Shown here: positions 39,784 to 61,719 of the stretch, in pieces
Numbering within the stretch: position 1 is the first letter of the stretch
How the letters are laid out: the number at the start of each line of letters is the position of its first letter
Assembly: GCA_035285325.1 (NCBI GenBank)
Contig: JAYKJB010000117.1
Coordinates: 832 to 64,831 of the forward strand
Length of the DNA: 64,000 nt
From: Candidatus Sericytochromatia bacterium
Lineage (GTDB): Bacteria; Cyanobacteriota; Sericytochromatia; S15B-MN24; JAQBPE01
Direction of reading: 5' to 3'
Made by a program: the position numbers and the translations under genes
Notes under the pieces: generated by a model
The model's input: only the letters and a program-made list of their open reading frames with translations
Told to the model about the DNA's origin: nothing
Database searches by the model: none

Positions 39784-39909
39784 GGTGGTCCACTTCCTTG
39801 CCCGCCCAGTATACCCGCCGGACAGCGGCAAGAAGCGACCTTCGGAGGGGGCCCCACTCATCCGCAGCGGTCGCGATCGGGGTCGTTTGGGCCGTGGCCT
39901 CGCGCGGTT

Positions 39910-43516: not shown

Positions 43517-43634
43517 GCTTCGAACTCCAGCCGGGGCGGGGGACAGGTCTTCCGGACAGCAGCCGGGCACCCCGCCCCCATGTACCCCACCCGTCACCCC
43601 CGCAAACGCCTTGGGGGGGCGCTGGCAGGCCCGC

Positions 43635-46455: not shown

Positions 46456-47430
46456 GTGACGCATTCATCCGCCCAACACCCCTGGCCGCTCCTGCGCCAC
46501 GCCGCGGCGTTTGGCGTGGCCCTGCTGCTGCTCGCGGGTTGTGGACGAGGAGCCTTCAACACGCCGGCGCGGCCCCTGCGGACTGTCCCGGCGCCAGCCC
46601 GTCTCACCGAGGCGATGCCAGCCGCGCCGGCCGGCCAACCGCCTGCCAATCCGATGCAGCGCCCGACGCCCTCGCTGACCCTGGTCCCGGAGGGCAGTCC
46701 TGGCGCCGGCAGCCCAGGCCTGCCGGCGGGAGCGCGCCCGGCCGCCCCATTGCCTGCACAGGTGACGGGTCCCGCCGCCGGGATCGCCGTGGCCTCACCG
46801 GGCCTCACCGAAGGTGCTCAGTTGCTCGCCGCCGTGCGGCAACGCAACCAATCCGCCAAGGCCTTTCAGGCCTACATCCGCACCTATTCCGAAGGTCACT
46901 TCAATGGGGGCAAGCAAGTCGCCGAACTGCGCAAGGTCAGCAGCGAGATGAAGCTGCTGTGGGCCTCTCCTGCCAGGTTGCGGGTCGAGATGATCAAGAC
47001 CTCCAACCCGCTGGCGGAGGGCGCGTTGCTCACCACCCAGGACACCGTCACCTGCCGGGTGCGGGCCAAGGGGCTGCTCAGCTTCTTGCCCATCACCATG
47101 CCGGCCGATGACCCGCGCCTGGCCAACAACCGCAATCACAGCCTGCCGGAGACCGATCCGAAATCGATGATGGATCGCCTGACCGCCGAGGGGGCCGTCT
47201 GGACCTTTCTGGGTGATGCTGAGGAAGACGGTCGCCCGGTCAAGCGGGTCCAGGTCGACCAGATTCGCTATCTCGATGGCGCGATCACGCGCGAGGTGAT
47301 CGCGGTCGATCCCGCCCTGATGGCCCTGCTGCGCATCACCATGTATGCCGGCAGCGGACGCGTGTTCGACGTGAGGCTGACCGACTTCACCTGGACGCCC
47401 ACCGTCGCCCCTGACGCCTTCTCCTCGTAG
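46456..47430 (+). CDS. Lipoprotein of unknown function
   Basis: GAGGAG RBS. Lipobox LLLAGCG. Pro/Ala-rich linker, then a globular domain. Confidence 0.55.
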   Translation: MTHSSAQHPWPLLRHAAAFGVALLLLAGCGRGAFNTPARPLRTVPAPARLTEAMPAAPAGQPPANPMQRPTPSLTLVPEGSPGAGSPGLPAGARPAAPLPAQVTGPAAGIAVASPGLTEGAQLLAAVRQRNQSAKAFQAYIRTYSEGHFNGGKQVAELRKVSSEMKLLWASPARLRVEMIKTSNPLAEGALLTTQDTVTCRVRAKGLLSFLPITMPADDPRLANNRNHSLPETDPKSMMDRLTAEGAVWTFLGDAEEDGRPVKRVQVDQIRYLDGAITREVIAVDPALMALLRITMYAGSGRVFDVRLTDFTWTPTVAPDAFSS

Positions 47431-47520: not shown

Positions 47521-50136
47521 TCAGGGGGCTGGCGCCTCCGAGGTGCCGTCCGCCGGCGCCTGGCGCTTGCGCTCCAGCCCGATGCCCACCCGACAGACCG
47601 GCCGCATGTCGCAGCGGCTGCAAGCCTCCCGGCGAAGGTCCGGCTGAACGGCAAAGGTCCCACTCTCGAACGTGCGTCGCACCCGTGCGACGAAGTCCTC
47701 CAGGTCGCTGGCCTCCGGCCGTTTAGAACTCAGAACCCGGGCCTTTTTCAGCGAAAAATAGCGGGTCTGCGCCACGAGGGTATCAGGGCCGCGCGCCTGC
47801 ACGGCTGCCTGTTCGTAGATCGGCAGCTGAAGATCGAGCCCCAGGCGTCCGTGCGCGTCACACACGCCGGCAGGCGGCGAAGCCCCCAGCTTGTAGTCCA
47901 CCAGTTCCAGCGTGCCATCCGCCCGTCGGTCGATGCGATCGATCCGTCCCGTCAACCGCAGCCCCGCCCAGGTGGTGGTGAACGCATCTTCCAGGGCCTC
48001 CGGGCGGGCGCCTGCGCTCAAGAAGTCGTCGGCAGCGATTGCGCGCCGCAGGGTGGCCAGATGTTCCAGGCGCTGACGCTCCCAGCGTGCGTCGGCGGGC
48101 AGTTCCAGCGCCTCCCGGGCCTCCTCCAACGCCGCCGGCAAGGCCTCGCCCAGCCCGGCGCGCCAGTCGAGCTGGTCCAGCGCGGCCTGGCCGGCCTGGA
48201 ACAGGGCCAGATGGTATAAATTGCCGCGTTCCGCGGGCGTCAATTCGTCCTCCGGGACGCGCCGAGGCACCAGCTTGAGCGCATGCGAGGCGAACCAGCG
48301 GAACGGACACTGGCCCAGGGCGGTCAGCTGGGTCACGCTGAACATCTGGGCCGCCGGGTCCCAGCGGCGTCCGGTCTGGCCCTCGTAGGGGCCCGGCGGC
48401 GCGGCGCCTTCCCGGGCCGCCTCGATCGCCAGGGCCGCCTGCAAGCGGGGCGCGAGCGGCTCTTGCTCGGGCGTCAACGCGTCGAGGCAGTGCTGGCGCA
48501 GCATGCGCCGGCTGGCCAGCACCAGCGGCGCCGGCGCTGCCTCCGGCGTGATGCCGCGCTGCGCCCAGTAAGGGCTCGGCAGCGTCGCCCGACCGGCGAG
48601 GCCGCGCGCATGGCTGAGGGTCAGGGCCTCGGTGGCGGCGGCACACGCCGCCTGGAACTCGGCCCACTCCCTTTCGAGCCGGTCGCGGGGAGACGGAAAT
48701 TCAGCCCCCAGCGCCGCGGCGGCGGCCCCATCGTGAAAGTCGCAGGCGGGATTTTCGCGCAACGGCGGCGGCCAATGCCCTTCCGCCAGACCCACGGCGT
48801 AGACCTCCTGAAAGCGCACACCGACGAGCTCCCCGGGTGATAGCAAGGCCACGCCCCCCTCGCCGGGCACCGCCGGCACGCGCAGCAGCGAACTCACGGC
48901 GTTCAGGGCCTCCAGAAAGCCGCGCAGGCTGAGCGCGGTCTCCGCCCGCAGCCAGGCCCGCAGATCCTCCCGCAGCAGGGCCAGTCCGACGTAGGACACC
49001 GGATCCTCTCCGACCCGCTGCAGCAGGCCCAGACGCTGGCAGGCGGCCTCGAACCAGTCGCACCAGGCCACGCCGCTCTGCCCAGCGGGCGGAGTGAAGG
49101 CCTGGCAGAAGTCCGTGGGAAGCGCGGGAGCCGCCGCGTCGCTCGACGCGCCGACCTCGGCGTCAGGCGGGCGTTCGGTCAACCGGTGGCGCCACAGCGC
49201 GGCGCAGGCCCTGTCCCGAAACCCGCCACGGAGCGCTTCCTCCCAGGCCAGCAACCAGGAGCCCAGCCAGGTCTCGGAGAGCGGAATGCGGTGGGTGGGG
49301 CGCAGCGGCAACTCGAACTCGCGGGCGATCGCCAGGGCCAGCGGGGCCTGGGCGGCCGGATCGCGCACGACGATCGCCACGCCTGCGGCGGGCACCCCCG
49401 CCCCCAGCCGCTGCTTGACCAGCCCCAAGACCCCGCGCCATTCCGACTCTTCATCCGCAAAACTGTAGCCGTTCACCCGACGCCCGGCCGCCTCCCGGAA
49501 GACAGGCGGGGCCTCTCGAACGGTCCAGCCATCGTCGCGCAGCCGCTGCATCAGGCGTTGCTGCGCCGCACTGGGGCCCTCGGGCGGCACGGGCAGGCAG
49601 ATGACGCTGCCTGGAGCGGCGATCGCCCCCAGGTAGGTCGACTCGCCCGCATCCAGGCCGAGATACCCCGTCAGCAGGACGGGAAGCGGCCGGAGCGAAG
49701 CCGAGCGGGCGGCCTCCCAGGCCAGTTCCGCCGGATGCAGCAGACCTCGCGCTCGCAGGGACGCTTGCAGAGCGGCCGCCAGGCGGGCCAGGCGTCGGAC
49801 GCGCGGAGGGGCCTCTGTGCCCAGCCGCGTGAGGTCAGCCCCGCCCCGCAACAAGCCGGCCAGCAGAGGCGCCAGGCTGCGGGCTTCCGGCATCACCTCG
49901 CCGGCGGGCAATTCATCCGCAAGCAAGACGAGCAAGTGGCGCTGCCAGTCCAAGGCGGAAGCAACCCGCCACTCGCCTTGCCCGGCCAGCGTCGCGCGGG
50001 CGTGCTGGGCCAACGACTGAAAGGGAACGCCGAGGGCGGCTGCCACACCGGCGTGAGGAACCAGGGCAGTCCGGTCGGCCAGCCACTGCCCCGCGGACTC
50101 CCCATCCAGCGGGGCCAGAACGACGTCTCGCATCAA
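47521..50136 (-). CDS. addB: AddB-like helicase-nuclease subunit (inactive helicase fold plus RecB-family nuclease with Fe-S cluster)
   Basis: TTG start. C-terminal nuclease motif GRIDRIDRRADGTLELVDYKLG. Four-Cys cluster, GVCDAH plus CSRCDMRPVC (C-x2-C-x5-C), exactly as in AddB Fe-S nuclease domains. Confidence 0.75.
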   Translation of the reverse strand: MMRDVVLAPLDGESAGQWLADRTALVPHAGVAAALGVPFQSLAQHARATLAGQGEWRVASALDWQRHLLVLLADELPAGEVMPEARSLAPLLAGLLRGGADLTRLGTEAPPRVRRLARLAAALQASLRARGLLHPAELAWEAARSASLRPLPVLLTGYLGLDAGESTYLGAIAAPGSVICLPVPPEGPSAAQQRLMQRLRDDGWTVREAPPVFREAAGRRVNGYSFADEESEWRGVLGLVKQRLGAGVPAAGVAIVVRDPAAQAPLALAIAREFELPLRPTHRIPLSETWLGSWLLAWEEALRGGFRDRACAALWRHRLTERPPDAEVGASSDAAAPALPTDFCQAFTPPAGQSGVAWCDWFEAACQRLGLLQRVGEDPVSYVGLALLREDLRAWLRAETALSLRGFLEALNAVSSLLRVPAVPGEGGVALLSPGELVGVRFQEVYAVGLAEGHWPPPLRENPACDFHDGAAAAALGAEFPSPRDRLEREWAEFQAACAAATEALTLSHARGLAGRATLPSPYWAQRGITPEAAPAPLVLASRRMLRQHCLDALTPEQEPLAPRLQAALAIEAAREGAAPPGPYEGQTGRRWDPAAQMFSVTQLTALGQCPFRWFASHALKLVPRRVPEDELTPAERGNLYHLALFQAGQAALDQLDWRAGLGEALPAALEEAREALELPADARWERQRLEHLATLRRAIAADDFLSAGARPEALEDAFTTTWAGLRLTGRIDRIDRRADGTLELVDYKLGASPPAGVCDAHGRLGLDLQLPIYEQAAVQARGPDTLVAQTRYFSLKKARVLSSKRPEASDLEDFVARVRRTFESGTFAVQPDLRREACSRCDMRPVCRVGIGLERKRQAPADGTSEAPAP

Positions 50137-50179: not shown

Positions 50180-52747
50180 CTACTTCGGCGCCACGAAGGT
50201 GGGGGAGAGTTCCACCGGATACTGGAAGCTTCCGCCGCGGTGCAGCCCGGTCACGGATGGGTAATCCGTCAGGCCACTGACAGCAGGCAAATTCATCCGG
50301 GTGGTCCCGTCCGCCGACAGGATGCTGGTGAGGCGGAAGGTATGCTTGCCAGGCTGATTCAAGGGATCCTCGACCGGCAGCGTCAGGACCAACTGAGAAC
50401 CTTGCCCCTGCACGGTGGTGCTGCGGGTGGTCACGCTGCCATTGGGGGCCTCCAAGTCGTAATTGACCACCCAGGACCCGGAGACCGGGCCGATCGCCCG
50501 AATCGTCAGGCTGGGCAGGTTGGCGGAAACCGGCACGCTCACCACCGAGCCATCGACGACGCCCGTCGCGCTTCCGGACAGCGTGATGCCGTTGCTGCTG
50601 CGTTCCGCCGTGATGTTCGAGGTCGCGCCCCGGATGCCCCACGTGGCGGCGCTGCCGTTCACATTGGCGAAGGTGAGCGGCTCCTGCCGCGTCTTGTTCG
50701 GATAGGCCGATTGCGCGTGCGCGAAGGTCAGGCTGGCCCCACCGACGGGTTGCCCGTCCCAGACGCTGGCGGGACGACCGTCAGCCGCCAAGGACGCGTC
50801 GTTGGACTGGTAGACCAGCGACGCGGAGAGCGGCCGGGAGACCCAGAAGGTGGTGGGCAGCGAGCGGGTGGTGTTCCAGCCGGCGTCCAGCGCGTCCGAG
50901 ACCATCTCGACCCACTCGTTGGGGGCGGTCTGATGGCTGCCGTTCACCCGGAACGAGGCCGAGGGAGCATCCAGCGGAATGGTCGGCTTGACGGTGGCAT
51001 TCGCCAGCGACGGCAGGGTGAAATCTCCCAGGGTCGTCTTGAGCACCACGGGCGCGGAGGGCGTGCCGTAAGCGGTGGATTGGAGGGTCACCCGCGGCAT
51101 GTTCTTGTAGATGCGCAGATTGACGGTCCGGCAATCCACCCGATAGCCGCTGGTGTTGCTGAAGGTGTAGCCGGCTTGCCCTGGCACGGAGGCCGAAGCA
51201 GACCCTGCCGACCCGTCGAGCCCCAGGGTCGAAGCGTAGCCGTCCGAGGCCGCGATGACGGTCAAGGGCGTGTTGGCGCGCAGAGGGGAGAGCGAATGGC
51301 TGAAGTTGACCTGGGCCCCCGGCACGACCCCGCTCAGGCGCGGGTCGTCCGAACTCCAGTTGACCAGCGCGTTGATCGACTTGGAGATCCACGTCGTGTA
51401 GGTGGTTTGCCACTCGCCGCCCGGGTCCTTGACCTTGATCCGGCCTTTCTCGCAATAGTACTGATTCGGGTCGAACTGGTAGTAGACGCAACGCCCGCCG
51501 TTCACCTTGGAATTGTGCGTCACCAGCGTGATCCAGCCGGGAATCGTACTGCCCTTGGCCATGTTCCAGGAATTCTTTTCGTACTGCGCCGCAGTCTGCC
51601 AGGTGGTGCAACCGCCGCCCGACACCGCCGCGTACTGATTGACCCAGTCCACGCTGATGTTGTCGCTGGTGCGGTAGCCGTTCTTCCAGATGGGAATCTG
51701 AATCCCCGGTGTCATCGAGGCCCAGGTTTTCGCGACCCAGAAGGTCTTGGCTTCCTGGTCGTTGAAGGTCTGACACTCGGCGGCCATCAAGCGCCGCTGC
51801 AGCGGTGCCACCCGGGCACCGCCGGTCGTGGCCCCCTGAAGCACAGGCCCCACCACCTGCATGGCCAGCCAGAAGTGGCCCTCCGAATCGCGCGTCACCG
51901 ACTCGGCTTGTTCGGAAAAGGTGTCGCCCGCGGCGTAGCGGTCGGCCAGCAGGGCCTCCATCGGGCCCTCGGCCTTGAAGCGCACCACCGCCTGCGCCCC
52001 CGGCGCCAGCGAGACGCCCTCGCCCAGGTCGAGGCTGTAGTGATAGGTGCCCAGGGGCACGTTGTCGGCCAGTTTATAGCCGGCGTCCGCAAAGGACTGT
52101 TGCGGCCCGTCTTTCTCGCTGCTGTTGGTGAAGGGCATCTGTTCCGGGAGGCGCTGGCCGGGCAAGCCCCATTGGCCATACACGCGGGTCACCGCCACCT
52201 TGGCATCCCCCGTCAGCGAACCGGGCGGGAAAATCACTTCCATATTCCCCGCCGAATTGAGCGCCTTGCCACCGGCCGCCGCCGTGATGGTGGTGCGCTG
52301 CGCATCCACCTGGGGCAGCCGCGCCGCAAAGCCCGGTACGATGTCCATTTCCATCGGGACGTACCCGGGCGCCCGAATGATGGCCGGTTGGCGTCCCAGG
52401 TTGGCGGTCGCAATCGGCATGGTGACCATGCCTTTCGCGTCGGTGAAGCCACGGAAATCACCCACGACCACTTCAGCGCGAGAAATGAAGGCGCCGTCCG
52501 CGCCCACCAGCTGGAATTGGTTCTTTTTGACCTCGCCGACTGGTGCCACCAGACCGAGATTGCGGGCCAGGGTTTCCTCGGCCTGGTAGGCCGGATCGTC
52601 GTTCGTCGCGACGGCACCCGCCGCACCCGACGTGCTGCTGCTCCCTCGGGTTTCGGGTTCCATCACTTGCGGCGCCCGCGTCTGACAGGCCGCCAAGGCC
52701 AGCATCACGGCGATCGCCGCCGGCGCACCCAAACGAACACGACGCAT
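50180..52747 (-). CDS. Large lipoprotein of unknown function (tandem paralog A)
   Basis: Lipobox AAIAVMLALAACQ. About 855 aa, Asn/Ser/Thr/Trp/Tyr/Gly-rich. Co-linear similarity of about 65-70% with the next gene. Confidence 0.7.
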   Translation of the reverse strand: MRRVRLGAPAAIAVMLALAACQTRAPQVMEPETRGSSSTSGAAGAVATNDDPAYQAEETLARNLGLVAPVGEVKKNQFQLVGADGAFISRAEVVVGDFRGFTDAKGMVTMPIATANLGRQPAIIRAPGYVPMEMDIVPGFAARLPQVDAQRTTITAAAGGKALNSAGNMEVIFPPGSLTGDAKVAVTRVYGQWGLPGQRLPEQMPFTNSSEKDGPQQSFADAGYKLADNVPLGTYHYSLDLGEGVSLAPGAQAVVRFKAEGPMEALLADRYAAGDTFSEQAESVTRDSEGHFWLAMQVVGPVLQGATTGGARVAPLQRRLMAAECQTFNDQEAKTFWVAKTWASMTPGIQIPIWKNGYRTSDNISVDWVNQYAAVSGGGCTTWQTAAQYEKNSWNMAKGSTIPGWITLVTHNSKVNGGRCVYYQFDPNQYYCEKGRIKVKDPGGEWQTTYTTWISKSINALVNWSSDDPRLSGVVPGAQVNFSHSLSPLRANTPLTVIAASDGYASTLGLDGSAGSASASVPGQAGYTFSNTSGYRVDCRTVNLRIYKNMPRVTLQSTAYGTPSAPVVLKTTLGDFTLPSLANATVKPTIPLDAPSASFRVNGSHQTAPNEWVEMVSDALDAGWNTTRSLPTTFWVSRPLSASLVYQSNDASLAADGRPASVWDGQPVGGASLTFAHAQSAYPNKTRQEPLTFANVNGSAATWGIRGATSNITAERSSNGITLSGSATGVVDGSVVSVPVSANLPSLTIRAIGPVSGSWVVNYDLEAPNGSVTTRSTTVQGQGSQLVLTLPVEDPLNQPGKHTFRLTSILSADGTTRMNLPAVSGLTDYPSVTGLHRGGSFQYPVELSPTFVAPK

Positions 52748-52894
52748 GGTCACTGACACTGGTGGTCCTCCCCCAATTTCCACCTGAGTCGCCTGAAGCG
52801 GGCTTCAAGCGACTCCCCCAGTTGTCCCGTACCCAACCCGGGAGCCTTTAAACAAGGGTCCTCGCTGTCAGATCCAGGGGGCCGCCGTGGAGCC

Positions 52895-55471
52895 TCACTT
52901 GGGCGCCACGAAGGTGGACTTCAACTCCACCGGATAAAGGAACAGGGCCCCTCGGTAGACCCCGGTGACCTCCGGGTAATTCATTCCGCCATCGGGCATC
53001 AGCAGGCGGTTGGCGCCGTCCTCCGAGGCCACGCTCTTCAACCGAAAGGTGTGCTTGCCTGGCTGGTTCAAGGGGTCCTCCACCGGCAGGTTGAAGACCA
53101 GGGTCGTGCCCTGAGGCTGAAGCGTCACGCGCTTGCTGACCAGCGAGCCGTCGCCTGCCACCAGATCGTATTCGGCCTCCCATTTGCCACTCAGGTTCCC
53201 CGAGGCACGCAGGGTCAGGCGTGGCAGGTTGGCGTTGAGCGGCAGGTTCACCGTGGTCCCGTTCACGCTGGCCGAAGCAGTGCCGGACAGCGTCACCCCG
53301 TTGGCGCTGCGCTGCGCCGTGATGCTCGAGGCGGCCCCGCTGAGCCCCCACGTCGTCGCGTTCCCCGTCAGGTTGGTGAAGCTGAGTGGTTCCTGGCGCG
53401 TCTTGCCCGCATAAGCGGATTGAGGGTGGCTGAAGGTCAGGTCCGCCCCACTGACCGCCTGCCCGTTCCAGACGCTGGCCGGGCGGCTCTCAGCCGGTTG
53501 GGACGCATCGTTCGACTCGTAGACGAGGGACGCGGTGATGCTGCGCGAGAACCAGAACGTGGTGGGCAGGTTCTTGGTCGTGTTCCAACCCGCATCCACG
53601 GCCGCGGAAGACATCTCGACCCACTCGCTGGCCGAGGGCTGATAGGCCCCGTTCACGCTGAAAGAGGCGGAGGGGGAGTTGAGCGGGATGCTCGGCTTGA
53701 CGGTGGTGTTCACCACCGCCGACAGCGGAAAATCACCCAGGCTGGTTTTCAGCGTCACCGCGCCGGGAGAGGCCCCATTGACCGTGGGTTGTAGCTCCAC
53801 CCGTGGCATGTTCTTGTGAATTCGCAGATCGACCGTGCGGCAATCGACCAGATAGCCACTGGTGCTGCCGAAGGTGAAGCCCGCTTGCCCGGGCAGGGAG
53901 GCCGACACCGACCCGTTGCTCCCCTCGACGCCGGTGGTCGACGCGTAGCCGTCACTGCCCGAGTCGAGCGACAGAGCGGTGCCGGCGCGCATCGGCGAGA
54001 CCGAGTGGTTGAAGTTCACCCGGGCACCGGCCACCGGGCCACTGATCCGCGGGTCGTCCGAATTCCAGTTCACCAGGGCGTTGATCGATTTCGAGTTCCA
54101 CTGCGTGTAAGTCGTCTGCCACTCGCCACCCGGGTCCTTGACCTTGATGCGGCCGCCCTCGCAATAGTACTGATTCGGGTCGAACTGGTAGTAGACGCAG
54201 CGGCCGCCATTGACGCCCGGGTTGTGGGTGACCAGGGTGACCCATCCCGGAATGGAACTGCCGGTGGCCATGTTGTAGGTGCCGCCGCCTTCATACTGGG
54301 CCGCCGTGCCGGAGGTCGTGCATCCCCCTCCGGAGCTGGCCGCGTACTGGTTGACCCAGTCAGCGCTGACGTTATTGCTCGTTCTGTAACCGTTGACCCA
54401 GATGGGAATCTCGATGCCGGGCGTCATGGAGGCCCACTGCTTTTTGACCCAGAAGGTCTTGGGTTCCTGGTCGGTGAAGGACTGACATTGCGCCGCCATC
54501 AGGCGCCGCCGCAGGGGCGGTGCCGCGCCGGCCCCCCCGGTCGCAATGACACTGGCCGTGTTCGGGCCCACCATCTGCATGGCCAGCCAGTAGTGGCCTG
54601 CGGCATCCCGCGTGACGGACTCGGTCTGCTGGGCAAAGGTGTCCCCCGCCTTGTAGCGCGCATCCAGAAGCGCCGCCATCGGACCTTCGGCCTTGAACCG
54701 CACAACCACCTTGGCGCCCGGCGCCACGGACACCCCCTCACCCAGATCGAGACCGTACTGATACGTCCCCAGCGGCACGTTGTCCGCCAGTTTGTAGCCC
54801 GCATCCGTGAAGGAGAAGGGCTTGCCGTCCTTCTCCGTGCTCATGGTGAAGGGCATCTGCTGCGGCAGGCGTTGACCAGGCAGGCCCCACTGACCGTACG
54901 CGCGCGTCACCGCCACGCGCGTATCGCCGCTGAGGGAGCCCGGTGGGAATACCACCTCCAGGTTTCCGGCCGCATTCATGGCCGTGCCGCCGGCCGCCGC
55001 CGTGATGGTGGTGCGCTGCGCATCGACCGGGCTCAGTTGCACCGCGAAGCCCGGAATCACATCCTGCTCGACGGCCATGTAGCCCGGGGCGCGGATCACG
55101 GCCGGTTGGCGCCCCAGCTTGGCGACCTCGGGCGGCAGATTGACCAACCCCTGGGCGTCCGTGAGGGCGCGCAAATCTCCCACAATGATCTCCGCCCCGG
55201 CCACCGGCTGCCCGCCGGCCGTGACGGTCTGGATCTGAGCCGGGGTGACCGCCCCCACCGGCGCCAGCAAGCCCAGGTTTCGCGCCAGGGTCGCCTGCGG
55301 GTCCTCGGGCGCCTTGGCGGGCGGGGCTCCCGCGCCACGGGCGCCCCCGGAGCGGGTGATCACGTCCGGCGCCGAGGCCTGTGGCGCCTGGCTTTGACAG
55401 GCGGCCATGGCCAGCATCACGGCGATCGCCGCGGGCGCATCCAGCCGAATCCGACGAGCAGGCGCGGTCAC
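52895..55471 (-). CDS. Large lipoprotein of unknown function (tandem paralog B)
   Basis: GTG start, lipobox AAIAVMLAMAACQ. Blocks shared with paralog A: AVTRVYGQWGLPGQRLPEQMPFT, RCVYYQFDPNQYYCE.GRIKVKDPGGEWQTTYT, LPVEDPLNQPGKHTFRL. Confidence 0.7.
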   Translation of the reverse strand: MTAPARRIRLDAPAAIAVMLAMAACQSQAPQASAPDVITRSGGARGAGAPPAKAPEDPQATLARNLGLLAPVGAVTPAQIQTVTAGGQPVAGAEIIVGDLRALTDAQGLVNLPPEVAKLGRQPAVIRAPGYMAVEQDVIPGFAVQLSPVDAQRTTITAAAGGTAMNAAGNLEVVFPPGSLSGDTRVAVTRAYGQWGLPGQRLPQQMPFTMSTEKDGKPFSFTDAGYKLADNVPLGTYQYGLDLGEGVSVAPGAKVVVRFKAEGPMAALLDARYKAGDTFAQQTESVTRDAAGHYWLAMQMVGPNTASVIATGGAGAAPPLRRRLMAAQCQSFTDQEPKTFWVKKQWASMTPGIEIPIWVNGYRTSNNVSADWVNQYAASSGGGCTTSGTAAQYEGGGTYNMATGSSIPGWVTLVTHNPGVNGGRCVYYQFDPNQYYCEGGRIKVKDPGGEWQTTYTQWNSKSINALVNWNSDDPRISGPVAGARVNFNHSVSPMRAGTALSLDSGSDGYASTTGVEGSNGSVSASLPGQAGFTFGSTSGYLVDCRTVDLRIHKNMPRVELQPTVNGASPGAVTLKTSLGDFPLSAVVNTTVKPSIPLNSPSASFSVNGAYQPSASEWVEMSSAAVDAGWNTTKNLPTTFWFSRSITASLVYESNDASQPAESRPASVWNGQAVSGADLTFSHPQSAYAGKTRQEPLSFTNLTGNATTWGLSGAASSITAQRSANGVTLSGTASASVNGTTVNLPLNANLPRLTLRASGNLSGKWEAEYDLVAGDGSLVSKRVTLQPQGTTLVFNLPVEDPLNQPGKHTFRLKSVASEDGANRLLMPDGGMNYPEVTGVYRGALFLYPVELKSTFVAPK

Positions 55472-55594: not shown

Positions 55595-56656
55595 TCAGCG
55601 GGCGTAAAACGAGGCTGGGAAGCACCACAGCGGACCTTCCTCGGCCGCGCACCAGAGGTCGTGGCTGCCCGGGCGAAAGGTGACGGCCTCGACCTGCCAG
55701 GCCCGCTGATCCGAGGCGTAGGGACAAGACCAGCGAGGCGGTTGCGCCACCACGGCGGCCATGGCCGCCGGCGTGGTGGGCGCGAGGGCGGATTCGTAGA
55801 CGTACAGGCGCCGCCGCCCGGCCGCCACGGCGAGGCGCGTGCCGTCCGAGGCGATCGCCGCCCCCGTCACCAGGCCCTCGAAACCGCGAGCCGGCGGCGT
55901 CAAGGCGCCGAGGCGGGTCAGCGTGACCGGGCTGCCGTCCAGCGCCGGAAAGTGGTACAGCCCGTGGCCGGCCGTCTTGGTGATCACGTAGGCCTCGCCC
56001 TGCCAGAACCAGAGCGCCTCGGCGTCGAACGAGCGCCCCCACGGCGGGGCATCCGGATAGCGAAAGGGCACCCGCAGGCTGGCGGTGGCCTGTCGCGCGC
56101 GGTAGGGATCGGGTTCCGGCACGCGCCACAGGCTCAGGTCGGTGCGATCTTCATCATTGTTGCCGCTATCGGCAATCCAGAGGTTCCCCGACGCATCGGC
56201 CGCCACTTCTTCCCAGTCTCGATTGGGGGCGCCCGCAACGGGCACGCTCCGCACCCGGCTACCATCCGGCCAGGCGACCAGCCGACCGGCCTGCTCGCGA
56301 AACGCCAGCAGCACCGCCCGCTGGCCAGGGCCGGAGTCCTGGATCGCCCAGCACACGCCGGGGTAGCGCCGTGAAGCGGCCAGCCCGCTGACCTCGTCCT
56401 GGGTGAACCGCCAGAGCGGCACGTGCGGGTCACGCTCGGCCCAGGCAGGCGGCCCTGCCAGGCAGGCCAGCAGGATGCCCCCCAGGAGCGTTCCAACCAA
56501 CGTCCCCCCGTCCTGCCTCCCTGGGATTCGGCCAGCCGTGCGCTCCGTGAGCGAGGCCGGCGATGGCGTGCCACGCGCGGAAATGTGGCGTTTCGCGGAT
56601 CCTCCGCGCGCCGGAAGCTTCTCGCCGTCACCGTCGCGCAGCCAGCAGCGGGTCAC
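55595..56656 (-). CDS. Secreted hypothetical protein (beta-propeller-like)
   Basis: Signal-like LVGTLLGGILLACLAGPPAWA. The start is probably downstream of the listed M. No confident family assignment. Confidence 0.45.
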   Translation of the reverse strand: MTRCWLRDGDGEKLPARGGSAKRHISARGTPSPASLTERTAGRIPGRQDGGTLVGTLLGGILLACLAGPPAWAERDPHVPLWRFTQDEVSGLAASRRYPGVCWAIQDSGPGQRAVLLAFREQAGRLVAWPDGSRVRSVPVAGAPNRDWEEVAADASGNLWIADSGNNDEDRTDLSLWRVPEPDPYRARQATASLRVPFRYPDAPPWGRSFDAEALWFWQGEAYVITKTAGHGLYHFPALDGSPVTLTRLGALTPPARGFEGLVTGAAIASDGTRLAVAAGRRRLYVYESALAPTTPAAMAAVVAQPPRWSCPYASDQRAWQVEAVTFRPGSHDLWCAAEEGPLWCFPASFYAR

Positions 56657-56669
56657 GGGAGCTGCCCCT

Positions 56670-57662
56670 TCACAGGCCGGCCCGCAACTTGGCCAGGCCC
56701 GGCAGCGAGAAGGCGCTGGAGCCGCCTTTCCAGGCCATGTGGGCCTTGCCGTCGCGCCAGGTCAACGAGGCAAACTCGCCGTCTTCCGCTTCACTGCAGC
56801 GCAGCGACACGCGCGGCCCCTCCGCCGCCGTCGTGACCGCCCCCCAAAATCGCACCGGCCCGTGCTGAGCTTCGAACAAGTAGTCTCCCTGCGGCGTGAC
56901 CGCGCCGTCGTCGAGCGAGACGGTCACGCCGAAGCGCTTGATGCCGAGCTTGAAACCGCGGCCCACGTGCGTCATGGCAGTGTCTTCCAGGCTCAAGGGA
57001 AGCCGTCGTGACGCGATCTGGCGCGCCAAGGCGCCCAGCGTCTGACGGGTGGAGCCGAGCGCCAGTTGCAGCGTGAAGCCCTGAGTGGTGGTCTTCAAGA
57101 CGGTGCCCACGTCGAGTCGCAAGGCCTCGTCCCGAAAGCCCCAGCCCCCGCCCGGCAAGGGCGTCGGCTGCAACAGCGGGAACAAGGGGCCACGGACCCC
57201 GGCCGGATTGATCAGGGCGAGCAGGTCTGGCACGTAGCTGTCGAGCCGGGTCAACTCGGCTTCCAACGGTTGGTCCACCGCCTTGCCCGCGTGCCCTTCC
57301 CCCCAGTACAGGCGCAGGCGATAAACCCGGTCGTCGGCGGCTTCGCGCTGATAGGTGCCCTGACCTTGCCAGGCATAGGGACCAAGGGCCTCGAAGACCT
57401 GTCCGTCGAGGCGCACGCCCCCTTGCAGCGCGCTCGACAGCTGGCGTGTCTGGCGGGCCACTTCAGCCGTCAGGACCCGCACGGCATCCACGAACAAGGC
57501 AGGCCCCTCGCCCAGGCGAGCCATCTCCTGCGGCAGCACGGGGGCCCCGCACACCAGCAACTCAGGCAACAGCGGGGCGAGGGCCTGCAGGCGATCGCAG
57601 GCGCTGCTGGCGAACATGGCGCTCAGCGTGGCGGAAAAGAGCAGGACGCGGGTCATTCGCAT
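56670..57662 (-). CDS. Hypothetical lipoprotein/secreted protein
   Basis: The ATG at 57662 follows GGAGG. Signal MRMTRVLLFSATLSAMFASSAC. Confidence 0.5.
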   Translation of the reverse strand: MRMTRVLLFSATLSAMFASSACDRLQALAPLLPELLVCGAPVLPQEMARLGEGPALFVDAVRVLTAEVARQTRQLSSALQGGVRLDGQVFEALGPYAWQGQGTYQREAADDRVYRLRLYWGEGHAGKAVDQPLEAELTRLDSYVPDLLALINPAGVRGPLFPLLQPTPLPGGGWGFRDEALRLDVGTVLKTTTQGFTLQLALGSTRQTLGALARQIASRRLPLSLEDTAMTHVGRGFKLGIKRFGVTVSLDDGAVTPQGDYLFEAQHGPVRFWGAVTTAAEGPRVSLRCSEAEDGEFASLTWRDGKAHMAWKGGSSAFSLPGLAKLRAGL

Positions 57663-57783
57663 GGGGGCAGGCCTCCGGTGGACCCGCCGTTCATACCCGA
57701 CCAGCAGACGAGCGGCACGCAGCCCCTGACAGCAGGGCTGCCCCATGGACCGAGCCCCCTTCAGCAGGCTACACTGGGCGGGT

Positions 57784-58980
57784 ATGGTCACCCGCCGACT
57801 CGATTCCAAAATTCGCATCACGGTGGACGTGCTGGCCCCGTCCACCCCTGCCCGGGCGCGCCTCTATCTGGCCAGCACGCTGAATGACTGGCGCACGGAC
57901 GACCCGGCCTACCGCTTCGAAGAACTGGAACCGGGACGCTACCGTCTGGGACTCGACGTGCCGCGTGGCACGACCATGGAATACAAGATCACGCGCGGCA
58001 CCTGGCGCACCGTCGAGGTCGATGAACGGGGCCAGGAACTGGAGAACCGCCGCCTGGCGGCCCTGGGCACCACCACGGTGCGCCTCGACATTCCACACTG
58101 GCGCGACCAGGCCAGTGCCCGGCGCCCGGCCCGGCCGCGCAGCACCGATGTGAGCGTGGTGGGCCCCCTGCCGATTCCGGTGCTGGGGCGGGAACGAGAG
58201 GTGGTGGTGTACCTGCCACCCGGTTACCATCAAGAGCCGAACCGACGCTTCCCCGTTCTTTATATGTTCGACGGCCAGAACCTGTTCGATCCCGCCACCG
58301 CCTTCAACGTGGAGTGGGGGGTCGATGAAACCTGCGATCGCCTCGTCCGCTCCGGTGAGTTGGCGCCCTTGATCGTGGTGGGCATCTACAACGGCGGTGA
58401 AAAGCGCCTGAGCGAACAATCCCCCTGGAAAGACGCGCGCCTCGGCGCCGACGGCGAGGGCCACGCTTTTTTGCGCTGGGTGGTCGGAGGGCTGAAGGAC
58501 CACATCGACGCTCACTACCGCACGCTGACGGGCCCTGAGCACACCGGGGTGGCAGGGTCCTCCATGGGGGGCCTGACCGCCCTGTTCGCCGCCTATCGCT
58601 ACCCGCTGGTGTTCGGGCGCGTGGCGGCGCTGTCCCCAGCCTTCTGGTTCGCCCGCAGCCAGATCTTCCGCTACATCGCCGGCATGCCGCCGCCCCTCGG
58701 CGCCCGGATTTACCTGGATTGCGGCGAACTGGAAACCGCCCGGGTCCACCCCAAACGCGACTTCTACCGGGTCGCCCACTCGATGGTGGATCTGCTGACC
58801 CTGCAAGGCTTCAAGGCCGAAGACAACATGCGCTGGGTCAGTGATCCCCGAGGCACCCACAGTGAGGCTTGCTGGGCCCGTCGGGTGGGCCCAGCGCTCA
58901 GCTGGCTATTCCCGGGCGAGGGCAAACCGAAAATCGCGCCGCGCGGCACGCGCCGCCTGCAGCGCCCGGGGTCGGTTTAG
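57784..58980 (+). CDS. Esterase-family alpha/beta hydrolase (enterochelin-esterase-like) with N-terminal beta-sandwich domain
   Basis: Nucleophile elbow GSSMGG. Putative-esterase motifs FPVLYMFDGQNLF and LIVVGIYNGGEKR. Confidence 0.8.
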   Translation: MVTRRLDSKIRITVDVLAPSTPARARLYLASTLNDWRTDDPAYRFEELEPGRYRLGLDVPRGTTMEYKITRGTWRTVEVDERGQELENRRLAALGTTTVRLDIPHWRDQASARRPARPRSTDVSVVGPLPIPVLGREREVVVYLPPGYHQEPNRRFPVLYMFDGQNLFDPATAFNVEWGVDETCDRLVRSGELAPLIVVGIYNGGEKRLSEQSPWKDARLGADGEGHAFLRWVVGGLKDHIDAHYRTLTGPEHTGVAGSSMGGLTALFAAYRYPLVFGRVAALSPAFWFARSQIFRYIAGMPPPLGARIYLDCGELETARVHPKRDFYRVAHSMVDLLTLQGFKAEDNMRWVSDPRGTHSEACWARRVGPALSWLFPGEGKPKIAPRGTRRLQRPGSV

Positions 58981-59840: not shown

Positions 59841-60677
59841 ATGGACAAGCTGGTCATCACGTGCGCGCCCGTCGGGGCGGAAGTCATGAAAACCGACAAC
59901 CCGGCTGTGCCCTACGGGCCCCGGGAAATCGCCGACGCCTCACTCGCCGCGGTGGCCGCCGGAGCCAGCCTGATCCACCTGCACGCGCGCGATGAAGCGG
60001 GCCGCCCCAGCCAGGAGCCGGCCCTCTTTCGGGAGATCTTCACGCGCATTCGCGCGGGGGCGAATCCGATCCTGCAAATTTCCACCGGCGGTGCCGTCAC
60101 GGCCACCACAGCTGAACGCCTGGCGCCCTTGGATGATGCGGCCTGCGTGGCGGCCCTCGAGATGGCGTCCTTCACCTGCGGCACGGTCAATTTCGGGGAC
60201 GAGGTCTTCATGAACAGCCCCGAGTTCCTGCTGGCGCTGGCGCACAAGCTCAAGGCCACCGGCATCAAGCCGGAAATCGAGGTGTTCGAAGCCGGCATGA
60301 TCGCCAACGCGATGCGGCTGGCCAAGCGCGGGGAAATTTCGCATCCGCTGCATTTCGACTTCGTGCTGGGCGTGCCGGGCGGCATGCCGGGCGGCGTGCG
60401 GGCCCTGCAATTTCTGGTGGACGCGTTGCCGGCCATGTGCACCTGGTCGGTGGCCGGCGTCGGTTCTCAGCAGCTGCCGATGGCGACGCTGGCGATTCTG
60501 ATGGGGGGACACGTGCGCGTCGGCTTGGAGGACAACCTGTTTTACCGCAAGGGTGAACTCGCCGAGAGCAACGCCCAGCTGGTCGCTCGCGTGGTGCGTC
60601 TGGCCCACGAACTCGGCCGCGAGGTCGCCAGCCCGGACGAGGCGCGCGAGATTCTCGGCCTGCCCCCGCACCCCTGA
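59841..60677 (+). CDS. kce: 3-keto-5-aminohexanoate cleavage enzyme (BKACE/DUF849 family)
   Basis: MDKLVITCAPVGAEV...LIHLHARDE...ILQISTGG and C-terminal GGHVRVGLEDNLFYRKGELAESNAQLV are hallmark BKACE motifs. Confidence 0.85.
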   Translation: MDKLVITCAPVGAEVMKTDNPAVPYGPREIADASLAAVAAGASLIHLHARDEAGRPSQEPALFREIFTRIRAGANPILQISTGGAVTATTAERLAPLDDAACVAALEMASFTCGTVNFGDEVFMNSPEFLLALAHKLKATGIKPEIEVFEAGMIANAMRLAKRGEISHPLHFDFVLGVPGGMPGGVRALQFLVDALPAMCTWSVAGVGSQQLPMATLAILMGGHVRVGLEDNLFYRKGELAESNAQLVARVVRLAHELGREVASPDEAREILGLPPHP

Positions 60678-60678
60678 C

Positions 60679-61719
60679 ATGGAGCGACATGTGACCTTGA
60701 CCACCCTCGATGAAAGCCCCTTCGGCGTCCACCGGGTGGTGGCTCCCGCAGGCGTTCTGCCCTATCAGGCCCAGCGCCTGGAACTCGATTCGCCGCTGCG
60801 CCCGGGAGAGGTGCGCCTGGCCGTCGAGAAGCTGAATCTGGATTCGGCCAGCTTTTACCAGCTCAAGCAGGAAACGAATGGCGACCTGGAAGCCCTGAAA
60901 AGCCGCGTGGCGGCGATCGTGGCCGAGCGGGGCAAGATGCACAACCCGGTCACGGGCTCGGGCGGCGTGTTGATCGGGCGCGTGGCGGAAGTGGGCGCGG
61001 CGCGTTCGGACGTGCAACCGGGCGATCGCCTGATCACCCTCGTCTCGCTGACCACCACCCCCTTGCGCCTGACCTCGCTGGGCGAGGTGATTCCGGCCGC
61101 CCACCAGCTCGTGGCCTCAGGGGAAGCGATCCTGTTCGCGCGCAGCCCCTACGGCGCTTTGCCTCCCGACATGGACGAGGATCTGGTGCTGTCGGTGCTG
61201 GATGTCTGCGGCGCCCCGGCCCAAGCGCACCGACTCAGTCAGCCAGGCATGACCGTGGTGGTGCTGGGCGCCGGCGGCCGCAGCGGGCTGCTCTGCACCT
61301 GGATCGCCGCCAGCCAGGTGGGCCCAGGTGGCCGCGTGCTCGCGCTGGAATACGGCGAGGCGGGGCTGGCCAAGCTCGCGCAGGTGCCGGGCCCCGTGAC
61401 CATCCGCCGGGTGGACGCCACCGATGCGGTGGCCGTGCGGCAGGCCGTGGAAGAGGCCACCGGCGGCGCACTGGCGGACCTGGCGATCAACTGCGTGAAC
61501 GTGCCTGGCACGGAAATGGCCAGCATTCTGGCCGTGCGGCCGCGGGGGATGGTCTATTTCTTCAGCATGGCCACGTCGTTCCAGGCGGCTGCGCTGGGCG
61601 CTGAAGCGGTCGGGCAGGACGTGGATCTGCTGATGGGCAACGGCTTTGCCGAGGGCCACGCGGCCTACGCGCTGCAGGTGGTGCGCGAGAACCCGGTGCT
61701 GGCGGATCTGGTGCGCTGA
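60679..61719 (+). CDS. kdd: L-erythro-3,5-diaminohexanoate dehydrogenase-like
   Basis: Begins 1 bp after the kce stop (tgacATG). About 346 aa. Rossmann motif VVLGAGGRSGLL. Similarity to Kdd throughout. Confidence 0.75.
   Translation: MERHVTLTTLDESPFGVHRVVAPAGVLPYQAQRLELDSPLRPGEVRLAVEKLNLDSASFYQLKQETNGDLEALKSRVAAIVAERGKMHNPVTGSGGVLIGRVAEVGAARSDVQPGDRLITLVSLTTTPLRLTSLGEVIPAAHQLVASGEAILFARSPYGALPPDMDEDLVLSVLDVCGAPAQAHRLSQPGMTVVVLGAGGRSGLLCTWIAASQVGPGGRVLALEYGEAGLAKLAQVPGPVTIRRVDATDAVAVRQAVEEATGGALADLAINCVNVPGTEMASILAVRPRGMVYFFSMATSFQAAALGAEAVGQDVDLLMGNGFAEGHAAYALQVVRENPVLADLVR

What the first reader, a model, noticed from the sequence alone, without database searches (positions are those of the whole stretch)
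50180..55471. Tandem pair of paralogous lipoproteins of about 860 aa with composition atypical for the genome and no recognisable domains
Both open with the lipobox AAIAVMLA(L/M)AACQ. They share long co-linear identical blocks such as RCVYYQFDPNQYYCE.GRIKVKDPGGEWQTTYT and LPVEDPLNQPGKHTFRL. Both are rich in Asn, Ser, Thr, Trp, Tyr and Gly, which forces lower-GC codons, in a genome that otherwise encodes Ala/Arg/Pro-rich proteins. A gene pair covering 5.3 kb, recently duplicated and diverging, with surface localisation implied, suggests cell-surface binding, S-layer-like or carbohydrate-binding functions under diversifying selection.
Basis: seen in the sequence. Interest (0 to 1): 0.55.

Follow-up and report, generated by a model that had tools for sequence, protein, structure and literature searches.

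The report
Duplicated giant envelope lipoprotein, Sericytochromatia-only
Two neighbouring genes encode old, well-conserved copies of a large lipid-anchored envelope protein built from a chain of beta-sandwich domains; the family is known only from non-photosynthetic relatives of cyanobacteria (Sericytochromatia), has no known function, and is not evolving fast.

Summary
Two minus-strand genes, A (50180..52759, 859 aa) and B (52895..55471, 858 aa), are 67% identical along their whole length. Both have a signal peptide with a lipobox, and neither matches Pfam, NCBIfam, PDB, PADLOC or PHROGs.

Parts of the interpretation fail:
- The duplication is old (dS about 0.95).
- Both copies are under purifying selection (dN/dS 0.26, and no 60-codon window exceeds 0.56).
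- GC3 is native (0.85). The lower GC reflects amino-acid content, not foreign origin.

Close homologs number only eight among 5.8 billion proteins, and the named ones are Sericytochromatia MAGs. About 20 more distant relatives share the C-terminal 400 residues.

Sensitive searches give this architecture: lipobox, flexible tether, transthyretin-like domain, ZU5-like domain, Cys/aromatic-rich module, then four Ig-like beta-sandwiches. The sandwiches contain an internal repeat of about 120 aa. The transthyretin-like plus ZU5-like cassette also occurs in bacterial teneurin-like/RHS proteins. The protein ends in a positionally invariant lysine.

In six of six orthologous loci an NHL beta-propeller gene follows directly. 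The two NHL products read in full have a lipobox. That gene is missing from this locus.

My best reading is a non-catalytic, lipid-anchored scaffold or adhesin of the cell envelope. It is a new family built from known folds, and its function is inferred, not shown.

The parts
50180..52759 (-). Gene A (859 aa from GTG 52759; 855 aa from ATG 52747). Corresponds to NCBI MAG protein VKP62_14530, annotated hypothetical.
   Evidence: ORF, translation, 100% match to P0001 (859 aa), SD-like GGAGGA upstream of the GTG.
52895..55471 (-). Gene B (858 aa). Corresponds to VKP62_14535. Tandem paralog of A, 67% amino-acid identity.
   Evidence: SD-like GGGGGAGGG lies 5-6 nt upstream of the GTG.
52685..52759 (-). 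A: signal peptide with lipobox L-A-A-C. The lipidated Cys is residue 21 in ATG numbering.
   Evidence: Sequence. All 19 family members with a complete N-terminus carry a lipobox.
55397..55471 (-). B: signal peptide with lipobox M-A-A-C (Cys25).
   Evidence: Sequence, alignment.
52598..52684 (-). A: low-complexity tether (residues 22-50) predicted to be disordered. It is followed by a short conserved helix with the motif LARNLGL.
   Evidence: pLDDT below 50 for residues 1-48 and helix 52-63. This stretch has the highest local divergence between A and B.
52307..52540 (-). A: transthyretin-like (CarboxypepD_reg-type) beta-sandwich, residues about 70-147.
   Evidence: pLDDT 90-96. Foldseek matches the transthyretin-like domains of carboxypeptidase D and SusC NTE domains. 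Weak PF13620 hit in B. hhalign against P0047 gives probability 96.4%.
51842..52306 (-). A: ZU5-like beta-sandwich, residues about 148-302. It contains the conserved loop GLPGQRLPE.MPF, which is predicted with low confidence.
   Evidence: The family profile aligns across the PF13620 and PF00791 (ZU5) regions of P0044, P0047 and P0051. Invariant columns are listed.
51413..51784 (-). A: central module rich in Cys, Trp and Tyr, residues about 322-445. It is the best-conserved stretch between A and B, and its fold is not predicted.
   Evidence: pLDDT below 50 for 337-442. Invariant C325, C380, C420, C432, seven Trp and seven Tyr. 82-90% identity between A and B at alignment columns 391-480.
51068..51409 (-). 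A: internal repeat copy 1, residues about 447-560. Motifs W.S..INA.V.W.SDDPR, V.F.H and KN.P.V.
   Evidence: hhalign of family sub-alignments gives probability 97.9% and E = 3.9e-13. pLDDT mostly 80-96, with a dip to 67 at residues 481-490.
50864..51067 (-). A: intervening beta-sandwich, residues about 561-628.
   Evidence: Strands and pLDDT above 90.
50489..50863 (-). A: internal repeat copy 2, residues about 629-753. It holds the family-wide invariant residues D650, P659, W663 and H677.
50183..50488 (-). A: C-terminal beta-sandwich, residues about 754-855. It carries the PVED...KH.F block, R837 and the terminal ...APK. The Lys is invariant in position across the family.

Best explanation
A and B are two functional, long-diverged tandem paralogs of a protein family so far seen almost only in Sericytochromatia.

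Each is made as a Sec/SPII lipoprotein precursor. The Cys of the lipobox is lipidated, which anchors the mature protein in a membrane of the cell envelope. From that anchor extends a disordered tether of about 30 residues, followed by an elongated chain of non-catalytic domains:
- a transthyretin-like and a ZU5-like sandwich, the same N-terminal cassette found between the anchor or adhesion modules and the NHL propeller of bacterial teneurin-like/RHS proteins;
- a probably disulfide-bonded, aromatic-rich module that is the most conserved part and the likeliest ligand-binding site;
- four Ig-like sandwiches, two of which are copies of one novel unit of about 120 aa;
- a positionally invariant C-terminal lysine.

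The protein most likely acts as an envelope scaffold or adhesin rather than as an enzyme. In other genomes it probably works with the NHL beta-propeller protein encoded directly downstream. The two NHL products read in full are lipoproteins.

Shown: paralogy, purifying selection, lipobox, taxonomic restriction, domain homologies, internal repeat, gene linkage with NHL.
Inferred: lipidation, location, partnership with the NHL protein, binding function.
For: - 67% identity over the full length.
- dS 0.95, dN 0.245 and dN/dS 0.26, with no window above 0.56.
- Native GC3.
- Lipobox in A, B and all 19 family members with a complete N-terminus.
- Eight close homologs among 5.8 billion proteins. 17 representatives at E<1e-30 among 1.84 billion. 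All named members of that core family are Sericytochromatia MAGs, including a third, distant paralog in the same MAG, VKP62_11315.
- Only two loci among 185,579 species-representative genomes, both Sericytochromatia.
- AlphaFold2 with 24 sequences gives mean pLDDT 76.5 and pTM 0.65. Residues 50-190 and 450-855 are mostly above 90 and all-beta.
- Foldseek neighbours are multi-sandwich pilins, adhesins and the TIE protein (E down to 1e-9), and phage fibre or baseplate decorations (E down to 1e-17). No enzyme fold appears.
- The transthyretin-like plus ZU5-like cassette is supported by profile hits to proteins carrying PF13620 and PF00791, two of which continue into NHL and RHS domains, and by hhalign at 96.4% probability.
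- Bacterial teneurin-like proteins have the order TTR, TIP, FN-plug, NHL, YD-shell, and the Gram-negative ones are predicted SPII lipoproteins (PMC13018210).
- Internal repeat.
- An orthologous NHL gene lies directly downstream on the same strand in six of six orthologous loci. These NHL genes are orthologs of each other at 54-88% identity. The two NHL products read in full (L001 and L013) carry a lipobox and a Pro/Thr-rich linker.
Against: - There is no experimental or annotated function anywhere in the family.
- The central module of about 120 aa could not be folded, and it could hide a catalytic or lectin site.
- Foldseek TM-scores are low (0.15-0.25), so only the general beads-on-a-string class is supported.
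- In this window the NHL partner is absent. No close NHL ortholog from this MAG is among the 120 best hits listed, so the partnership cannot be essential here, or the MAG is incomplete.
- Location (inner membrane, outer membrane or surface) is unknown.
Confidence: 0.55

Rival explanations
1. A glycan-binding surface lipoprotein, functionally like SusE/SusF. The aromatic-rich central module and the Ig-like sandwiches would bind polysaccharide at the cell surface, and the NHL propeller would be the associated enzyme or binder.
For: The central module has seven invariant Trp and seven invariant Tyr. The protein is rich in Asn, Ser and Thr. It is lipid-anchored. A weak Foldseek match to a putative carbohydrate-binding protein (4iyk) and to a CBM came from the low-confidence first model.
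Against: No CBM, lectin or glycoside-hydrolase family is detected by Pfam or NCBIfam. No transporter or glycan-utilisation genes are conserved near any locus. The structural matches to carbohydrate-binding proteins come from a poor model and have low probability.
Confidence: 0.15
2. A covalent tether between envelope layers, a giant analogue of Braun's lipoprotein. The N-terminal lipid would sit in the outer membrane, and the invariant C-terminal lysine would be cross-linked to peptidoglycan by an L,D-transpeptidase.
For: An N-terminal lipobox is combined with a Lys at the same final aligned position in all 24 aligned members and three further fragments. In 20 of these 27 sequences the chain ends exactly at that Lys. 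Lpp is attached to peptidoglycan through its C-terminal Lys (background from papers listed; established knowledge).
Against: In seven sequences 4-11 residues follow the Lys (PKYRSN, PKYKTR, PKFRLD, PKYKAPKAG, AKFRQR, AAKYRVHSLRR). The Lys follows the last strand of a folded sandwich and may be structural, for example in a salt bridge with the invariant E793. No L,D-transpeptidase gene is linked. An 850-aa multi-domain protein is very unlike the 58-aa coiled-coil Lpp. No sequence homology to Lpp was found.
Confidence: 0.06
3. A polymerising surface fibre or lattice subunit: either pilus-like, as in the type V pilins of Bacteroidia that are exported as lipoproteins, or an S-layer component.
For: The best structural neighbours are pilins (PitA, SpaD, BcpA, SpaA), and Bacteroides putative cell adhesion proteins (3t2l, 3ufi) appear among the matches. 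The family has a lipoprotein precursor and a conserved C-terminal strand.
Against: TM-scores are 0.09-0.25 and rmsd 12-30 A, so the matches reflect generic tandem sandwiches. No sortase motif, SLH domain or linked pilus-assembly genes were found. The proteins are about twice the size of the matched pilin chains (target lengths 238-450 aa).
Confidence: 0.07
4. An envelope enzyme with a novel catalytic domain in the unfolded central region, for example a hydrolase. The sandwiches would act as spacers and substrate-binding modules.
For: The central module is the most conserved part and holds invariant His411, Glu390, Asp441, Arg419 and several Cys among the close orthologs. A CarboxypepD_reg domain often accompanies peptidases. 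Peptidase_M14 genes lie near one ortholog, in L004.
Against: Across the wider family the central module is replaced or shortened. The residues invariant family-wide lie in the C-terminal sandwiches, not in the centre. No enzyme family or fold match was found.
Confidence: 0.1

Closest known systems
N-terminal display region of bacterial teneurin-like / RHS proteins (order BIG, TTR, TIP, FN-plug, NHL, YD-shell; PMC13018210)
   Same: Both have a transthyretin-like domain directly followed by a ZU5-type sandwich. The family profile hits such proteins at E = 1e-5 to 1e-6 against 1.84 billion sequences. The Gram-negative teneurin-like proteins are also predicted SPII lipoproteins. An NHL propeller is the next element: fused in those proteins, encoded by the next gene in the orthologs here.
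   Different: No FN-plug, YD/RHS shell or toxin domain is present here or in neighbouring genes. The C-terminal 550 residues are unrelated. Equating the Pfam ZU5 hit with the paper's 'TIP' domain is my inference from its position and was not tested.
Gram-positive pilins and MSCRAMM-type adhesins (PitA 7vcn, SpaD 5z0z, BcpA 3rkp, SdrD, TIE protein 6fwv)
   Same: Both are predicted chains of Ig-like/CnaB-like beta-sandwich domains. These are the best Foldseek matches, with E = 1e-9 to 1e-5.
   Different: No sequence homology was found. There is no LPXTG or sortase signal. The anchor is an N-terminal lipid in a diderm lineage. TM-scores are only 0.09-0.25. Isopeptide or thioester chemistry could not be tested.
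Braun's lipoprotein Lpp
   Same: An N-terminal lipobox plus a conserved Lys at or near the C-terminus.
   Different: Size (58 aa against 855 aa), fold (coiled coil against beta-sandwiches) and taxonomy all differ. Attachment to peptidoglycan is untested, and the Lys is not terminal in every member.
SusE/SusF-type surface lipoproteins of Bacteroidota
   Same: Both are lipid-anchored tandem beta-sandwich proteins with a flexible tether.
   Different: There is no sequence or confident structural match. No linked SusC/SusD or glycan-utilisation genes were found.

Membership tests
Bacterial lipoproteins (Sec/SPII substrates) | N-terminal signal peptide with positive n-region and hydrophobic h-region, ending in a lipobox [LVI...][ASTVI][GAS]-C | tested here: met
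   A has MRRVRLGAPAAIAVMLALAAC and B has ...RRIRLDAPAAIAVMLAMAAC. All 19 aligned homologs with a complete N-terminus carry a lipobox.
Bacterial lipoproteins (Sec/SPII substrates) | Actual diacylglyceryl modification and cleavage by signal peptidase II | not testable with these tools
   This needs globomycin sensitivity, mass spectrometry or labelling.
CarboxypepD_reg / transthyretin-like domain (PF13620) | Match to the Pfam model above its gathering score | tested here: not met
   B scores 16.9 bits against a cut-off of 32.3 (E = 0.0084). A has no hit.
CarboxypepD_reg / transthyretin-like domain (PF13620) | Transthyretin-like 7-strand sandwich fold and profile-level homology to bona fide members | tested here: met
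   Foldseek matches to the transthyretin-like domains of carboxypeptidase D and to SusC NTE domains have probability 1.0 and rmsd about 3 A over about 80 residues. hhalign against P0047, whose PF13620 hit has E = 5.7e-13, gives probability 96.4%.
ZU5 domain (PF00791) | Match to the Pfam model, or profile homology to proteins that match it | tested here: inconclusive
   A and B have no direct Pfam hit. The family profile aligns over the ZU5 regions of P0044, P0047 and P0051. Their ZU5 hits score 24-28 bits against a cut-off of 21. The hhalign alignment ends at residue 229 of P0047, so it covers only the first part of the ZU5 domain.
Teneurin-like proteins / RHS toxins | FN-plug, NHL propeller and YD-repeat shell superfold | tested here: not met
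   No RHS, YD or NHL hit in A or B. No NHL ortholog was found anywhere in the window. Only the transthyretin-like plus ZU5-like cassette is shared.
Gram-positive isopeptide-bonded pilins | Sortase signal (LPXTG), pilin motif, intramolecular Lys-Asn/Asp isopeptide triads | tested here: not met
   The C-terminus is ...FVAPK followed by the stop codon, with no LPXTG or hydrophobic tail.
S-layer proteins of Cyanobacteriota and other diderms | SLH domain or another known S-layer anchoring module | tested here: not met
   No SLH or S-layer family appears in Pfam or NCBIfam at E <= 1.
Braun-type peptidoglycan-linked lipoproteins | C-terminal Lys covalently bound to peptidoglycan | not testable with these tools
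   A conserved Lys is present. The linkage itself needs muropeptide analysis.

The most novel reading that the evidence does not exclude
The family and its NHL-propeller neighbour would form a two-lipoprotein envelope machine specific to Sericytochromatia. It would have been derived by splitting the display stalk (transthyretin-like, ZU5-like/TIP-like, NHL) of a teneurin-like toxin ancestor and adding a new C-terminal arm. The positionally invariant terminal lysine of that arm would be covalently fixed to peptidoglycan or to another subunit. That would make it a new kind of outer-membrane-to-wall tether or cell-contact apparatus in a lineage whose envelope is essentially unstudied.
Probability: 0.08. 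Interest if true: 0.75.

Novelty: new variant of a known kind. Interest (0 to 1): 0.35.

Why it matters
Sericytochromatia are the non-photosynthetic sister lineages of the oxygenic cyanobacteria. They are known almost only from MAGs, and nothing is known experimentally about their envelope.

This family is large, under purifying selection, multi-copy (at least three paralogs in this MAG) and class-restricted. It also has a strictly linked NHL-propeller gene in other members. That makes it a concrete candidate for a lineage-specific envelope structure.

It adds three things for annotation:
- an uncharacterised domain of about 120 aa;
- an uncharacterised Cys/aromatic-rich module;
- a case in which the transthyretin-like plus ZU5-like cassette of teneurin-like proteins occurs outside a toxin context.

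The practical value is modest until an isolate or a heterologous system allows experiments.

Tried and rejected
- **Horizontal transfer as the cause of the odd composition.** Rejected: GC3 is 0.85, equal to the neighbours, and the deficit lies in codon position 1.
- **Assembly duplication.** Rejected: nucleotide identity is 71% and each copy has its own ribosome-binding site.
- **Diversifying selection, or a hypervariable target of a diversity-generating retroelement.** Rejected: dN/dS is 0.26 and no window exceeds 0.56. No near-identical template repeat exists in 49.5-56 kb. No reverse transcriptase appears among the ten neighbouring gene products scanned between 36.6 and 59 kb.
- **Defence-system or phage origin.** PADLOC and PHROGs give no hits.
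- **Deepening the alignment with the word-indexed search.** Searching with the 24-sequence alignment returned only the same eight proteins. The exhaustive representative search was what found the distant members.
- **First AlphaFold run.** With eight sequences the model was poor (pLDDT 46) and its Foldseek matches were informative only for the transthyretin-like domain.
- **Locus search with the 24-sequence alignment.** It failed because no stretch was conserved enough.
- **Synteny of the window's other neighbours with the ortholog loci.** None was found.
- **The upstream phytase-like propeller (55595..56656) as the NHL partner's ortholog.** BLASTP shows only repeat-level similarity at E = 0.005. 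It may be an analogue but is not an ortholog.
Full report
**1. The observation**

The window is about 70% GC. On the minus strand lie two long ORFs, 50180..52783 and 52895..55471.

BLASTP aligns them end to end: 573/859 identities (67%), 80% positives and 11 gap positions. The likely starts are GTG 52759 for A and GTG 55471 for B. A then has 859 aa, identical in length to the NCBI model P0001, with an SD-like GGAGGA upstream. B has 858 aa and is preceded by GGGGGAGGG.

The DNA repeat unit is about 2712 bp and extends about 15 nt upstream of each start, so the ribosome-binding site was duplicated with the gene. At 71% nucleotide identity, with a longest identical run of 42 nt, this is not an assembly artefact.

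**2. Composition**

A and B hold 37% N+S+T+W+Y+G, against 18-31% in 12 neighbouring genes. Asn is 4.6-4.9% against 0.3-2.5%. Trp and Tyr are within the local range.

GC3 is 0.85, the same as the neighbours (0.81-0.86). The GC deficit sits in codon position 1 (0.60-0.62 against 0.68-0.79). The 'atypical composition' is therefore what an Asn/Ser/Thr-rich exported beta protein looks like in a native high-GC codon regime. It does not indicate foreign DNA.

**3. Age of the duplication and selection**

Nei-Gojobori estimates on the codon alignment give dS = 0.95, dN = 0.245 and dN/dS = 0.26. Across 60-codon windows the ratio ranges from 0.10 to 0.56.

The most divergent parts are the signal peptide and tether and the last 140 residues. 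The most conserved part is columns 391-480, at 82-90% identity.

A and B are equally distant from all outgroups (51-55% and 52-55%). They are sister sequences in a neighbour-joining tree, and every other genome sampled has a single copy at the locus. This is an old, lineage-specific tandem duplication with both copies kept under purifying selection. It is neither recent nor diversifying.

**4. Distribution**

- The word-indexed search of 5.8 billion proteins found eight proteins: A, B and six at 50-56% identity. The named ones are 'Candidatus Sericytochromatia bacterium' MAGs.
- An exhaustive profile search of 1.84 billion representatives found 81 hits, 17 of them at E<1e-30. About 20 proteins of 660-995 aa share the C-terminal 400-450 residues.
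- All named members of that core family are Sericytochromatia MAGs. They include VKP62_11315, a third paralog (32% identity) in the same MAG as the window, and VKQ33_13720, a second paralog in the MAG that carries P0005. One partial N-terminal-region hit, P0023, is labelled Oscillatoriaceae cyanobacterium.
- A scan of one genome per species for 185,579 species found only two loci, both Sericytochromatia. The metagenome scan added one more.

**5. What the protein is made of**

Curated libraries give nothing significant: Pfam, NCBIfam, PDB sequences (single sequence and profile), PADLOC and PHROGs.

With 24 aligned sequences AlphaFold2 reached mean pLDDT 76.5 and pTM 0.65. Residues 50-190 and 450-855 are mostly above 90 and all-beta. 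Residues 1-48, 205-229, 306-321 and 337-442 stay below 50. The resulting map, in ATG numbering of A, is:

| Residues | Element | Evidence |
|---|---|---|
| 1-21 | Signal peptide ending in the lipobox L-A-A-C (M-A-A-C in B) | All 19 family members with a complete N-terminus have a lipobox |
| 22-50 | Disordered tether | |
| 52-63 | Helix with the conserved motif LARNLGL | |
| about 70-147 | Transthyretin-like sandwich | Foldseek matches to carboxypeptidase D transthyretin-like domains and SusC NTE domains; weak PF13620 hit |
| about 148-302 | ZU5-like sandwich | See below |
| about 322-445 | Module with four invariant Cys, seven invariant Trp and seven invariant Tyr; fold not predicted | |
| about 447-855 | Four sandwiches | |

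The ZU5-like assignment rests on profile evidence. The family profile aligns across both the PF13620 and the PF00791 regions of P0044, P0047 and P0051. hhalign against P0047 gives 96.4% probability and E = 1e-9.

The central module is replaced by shorter Cys-rich segments in distant members.

Within the four C-terminal sandwiches, residues about 447-560 and about 629-753 are copies of one unit of about 120 aa (hhalign 97.9%, E = 3.9e-13). They share the motifs W.S..I.A.V.W.SDD, V.F.H and N.P.V.

The residues invariant across the whole family lie in this C-terminal part: G561, D650, P659, W663, H677, G704, A742, L744, P745, P791, E793, R837 and K855.

Foldseek neighbours of the whole model are Gram-positive pilins, the TIE protein, SdrD and other adhesins. 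In the viral library they are Ig-decorated baseplate and fibre proteins. E-values are good but TM-scores are 0.09-0.25. This supports the class 'string of sandwich domains' and nothing more specific. No enzyme fold appears.

**6. The C-terminus**

All 24 aligned members and three further fragments have Lys at the same final aligned position. In 20 of the 27 sequences the chain ends exactly there (...APK...AAK...GVK). In the other seven, 4-11 residues follow (PKYRSN, PKYKTR, PKFRLD, PKYKAPKAG, AKFRQR, AAKYRVHSLRR).

Such positional invariance at 20-35% overall identity implies constraint. Whether the constraint is structural or chemical cannot be decided here.

**7. Genomic context**

In the window:
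- Downstream of A lie an AddB-like PD-(D/E)XK nuclease and a UvrD-like helicase.
- Upstream of B lies a 353-aa protein with a phytase-like beta-propeller hit (PF13449, E = 1.4e-6) and an N-terminal signal sequence.
- None of these neighbours recurs at the other loci.

One gene does recur. In six of six orthologous loci with downstream sequence (L001, L004, L005, L010/L011, L012, L013), the next gene on the same strand is an NHL-repeat beta-propeller.
- The gap is as short as 28-31 nt where the start is well called.
- These NHL proteins are orthologs of one another at 54-88% identity.
- The two NHL products read in full (L001 and L013) have a lipobox and a long Pro/Thr-rich linker.
- They form an equally narrow family, with about eight proteins at 50% identity or more.

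The window has no such gene. No close ortholog from this MAG appears among the 120 best hits listed, though MAG incompleteness cannot be excluded.

Two of the proteins that share the transthyretin-like plus ZU5-like cassette continue into NHL and RHS repeats. That is the architecture described for bacterial teneurin-like proteins (BIG, TTR, TIP, FN-plug, NHL, YD-shell), whose Gram-negative members are predicted SPII lipoproteins (PMC13018210). The fused arrangement there and the neighbouring genes here together suggest that the cassette and an NHL propeller work side by side. This is an inference. Equating the ZU5 hit with the paper's 'TIP' domain also rests only on position.

**8. Most likely mechanism**

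Shown:
- two intact paralogs under purifying selection;
- lipoprotein signal peptides;
- a class-restricted family with several paralogs per genome;
- the transthyretin-like plus ZU5-like cassette;
- the internal repeat;
- the all-beta multi-domain model;
- linkage to the NHL gene in orthologs.

Inferred:
- the proteins are lipidated and anchored in an envelope membrane;
- they extend as an elongated, non-catalytic arm;
- the conserved aromatic, probably disulfide-bonded module and/or the C-terminal sandwiches bind a ligand or partner;
- the transthyretin-like/ZU5-like end docks the NHL lipoprotein where one is present.

I put about 0.55 on this scaffold/adhesin reading. The rivals are glycan binding (0.15), an enzyme hidden in the central module (0.10), a polymerising fibre or lattice (0.07) and a Braun-like covalent tether through the terminal Lys (0.06). 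None is excluded, and none has positive evidence beyond resemblance.

**9. Novelty and verdict**

The folds are familiar and the general kind, a multi-sandwich envelope lipoprotein, is known. Several things are new:
- the family itself;
- its repeat unit of about 120 aa;
- its central module;
- its restriction to Sericytochromatia;
- its strict pairing with an NHL-propeller gene;
- its sharing of a teneurin-like N-terminal cassette without any toxin shell.

I rate it a new variant of a known kind, of moderate interest (0.35). The claims of recency and diversifying selection are contradicted. The S-layer and carbohydrate ideas are untested.

Noticed in passing
window 38587..39861 (-) and 41870..43867 (-): A second pair of paralogous putative lipoproteins (424 and 665 aa). 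They share long blocks such as GYWFVS.EG..P.YPMQGCGQG.VWFVSQVGQQV..RVSGYND. The longer one has a CarboxypepD_reg domain (PF13620, E = 6e-9). They flank a 622-aa glycosyltransferase (GT4) plus methyltransferase fusion at 39910..41778 (-). Duplicated envelope lipoproteins seem to be a theme in this genome.
   Followed up: partly
window 55595..56656 (-): The gene directly upstream of B encodes a 353-aa protein with a phytase-like beta-propeller hit (PF13449, E = 1.4e-6). Its N-terminal hydrophobic segment ...LLGGILLACLAGPPAWA could be a lipobox or an AXA signal-peptidase site. It occupies a neighbouring position where the orthologous loci have an NHL propeller, but it is not an ortholog of that gene (BLASTP E = 0.005).
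   Followed up: partly
window 43635..46334 (-) and 47521..50136 (-): A UvrD/AddA-like helicase (899 aa) and an AddB-like PD-(D/E)XK nuclease (871 aa) are separated by an oppositely oriented 324-aa ORF (46456..47430, +). That ORF has a lipobox-like LLLAGC and no Pfam hit.
   Followed up: partly
window 59841..60677 (+) and 60553..61719 (+): A beta-keto acid cleavage enzyme (BKACE, PF05853, E = 1e-103) is followed by an overlapping ORF with a weak zinc-type dehydrogenase hit. This could be a lysine or beta-amino-acid degradation pair (kce/kdd-like).
   Followed up: partly
window 35109..36527 (+): A 472-aa ORF with an N-terminal Cys-rich motif like a B-box or zinc ribbon (CFYHP...CEGC...C.NC....C..C), followed by a long Ala/Pro-rich low-complexity region. 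It has no Pfam hit.
   Followed up: no
L006 (contig SRR19514065_468463) 903..3569; protein P0012 = VKP62_11315: A third, distant family member (888 aa, 32% identity to A) is encoded elsewhere in the same MAG, with no NHL neighbour. The MAG carrying P0005 also has a second distant member (P0018, VKQ33_13720). The family therefore has at least two anciently split subfamilies per genome.
   Followed up: partly
window 56670..57845 (-): A 391-aa ORF with a possible lipobox (...MFASSAC) and no Pfam hit. It is yet another uncharacterised putative lipoprotein in the same gene string as A and B.
   Followed up: no
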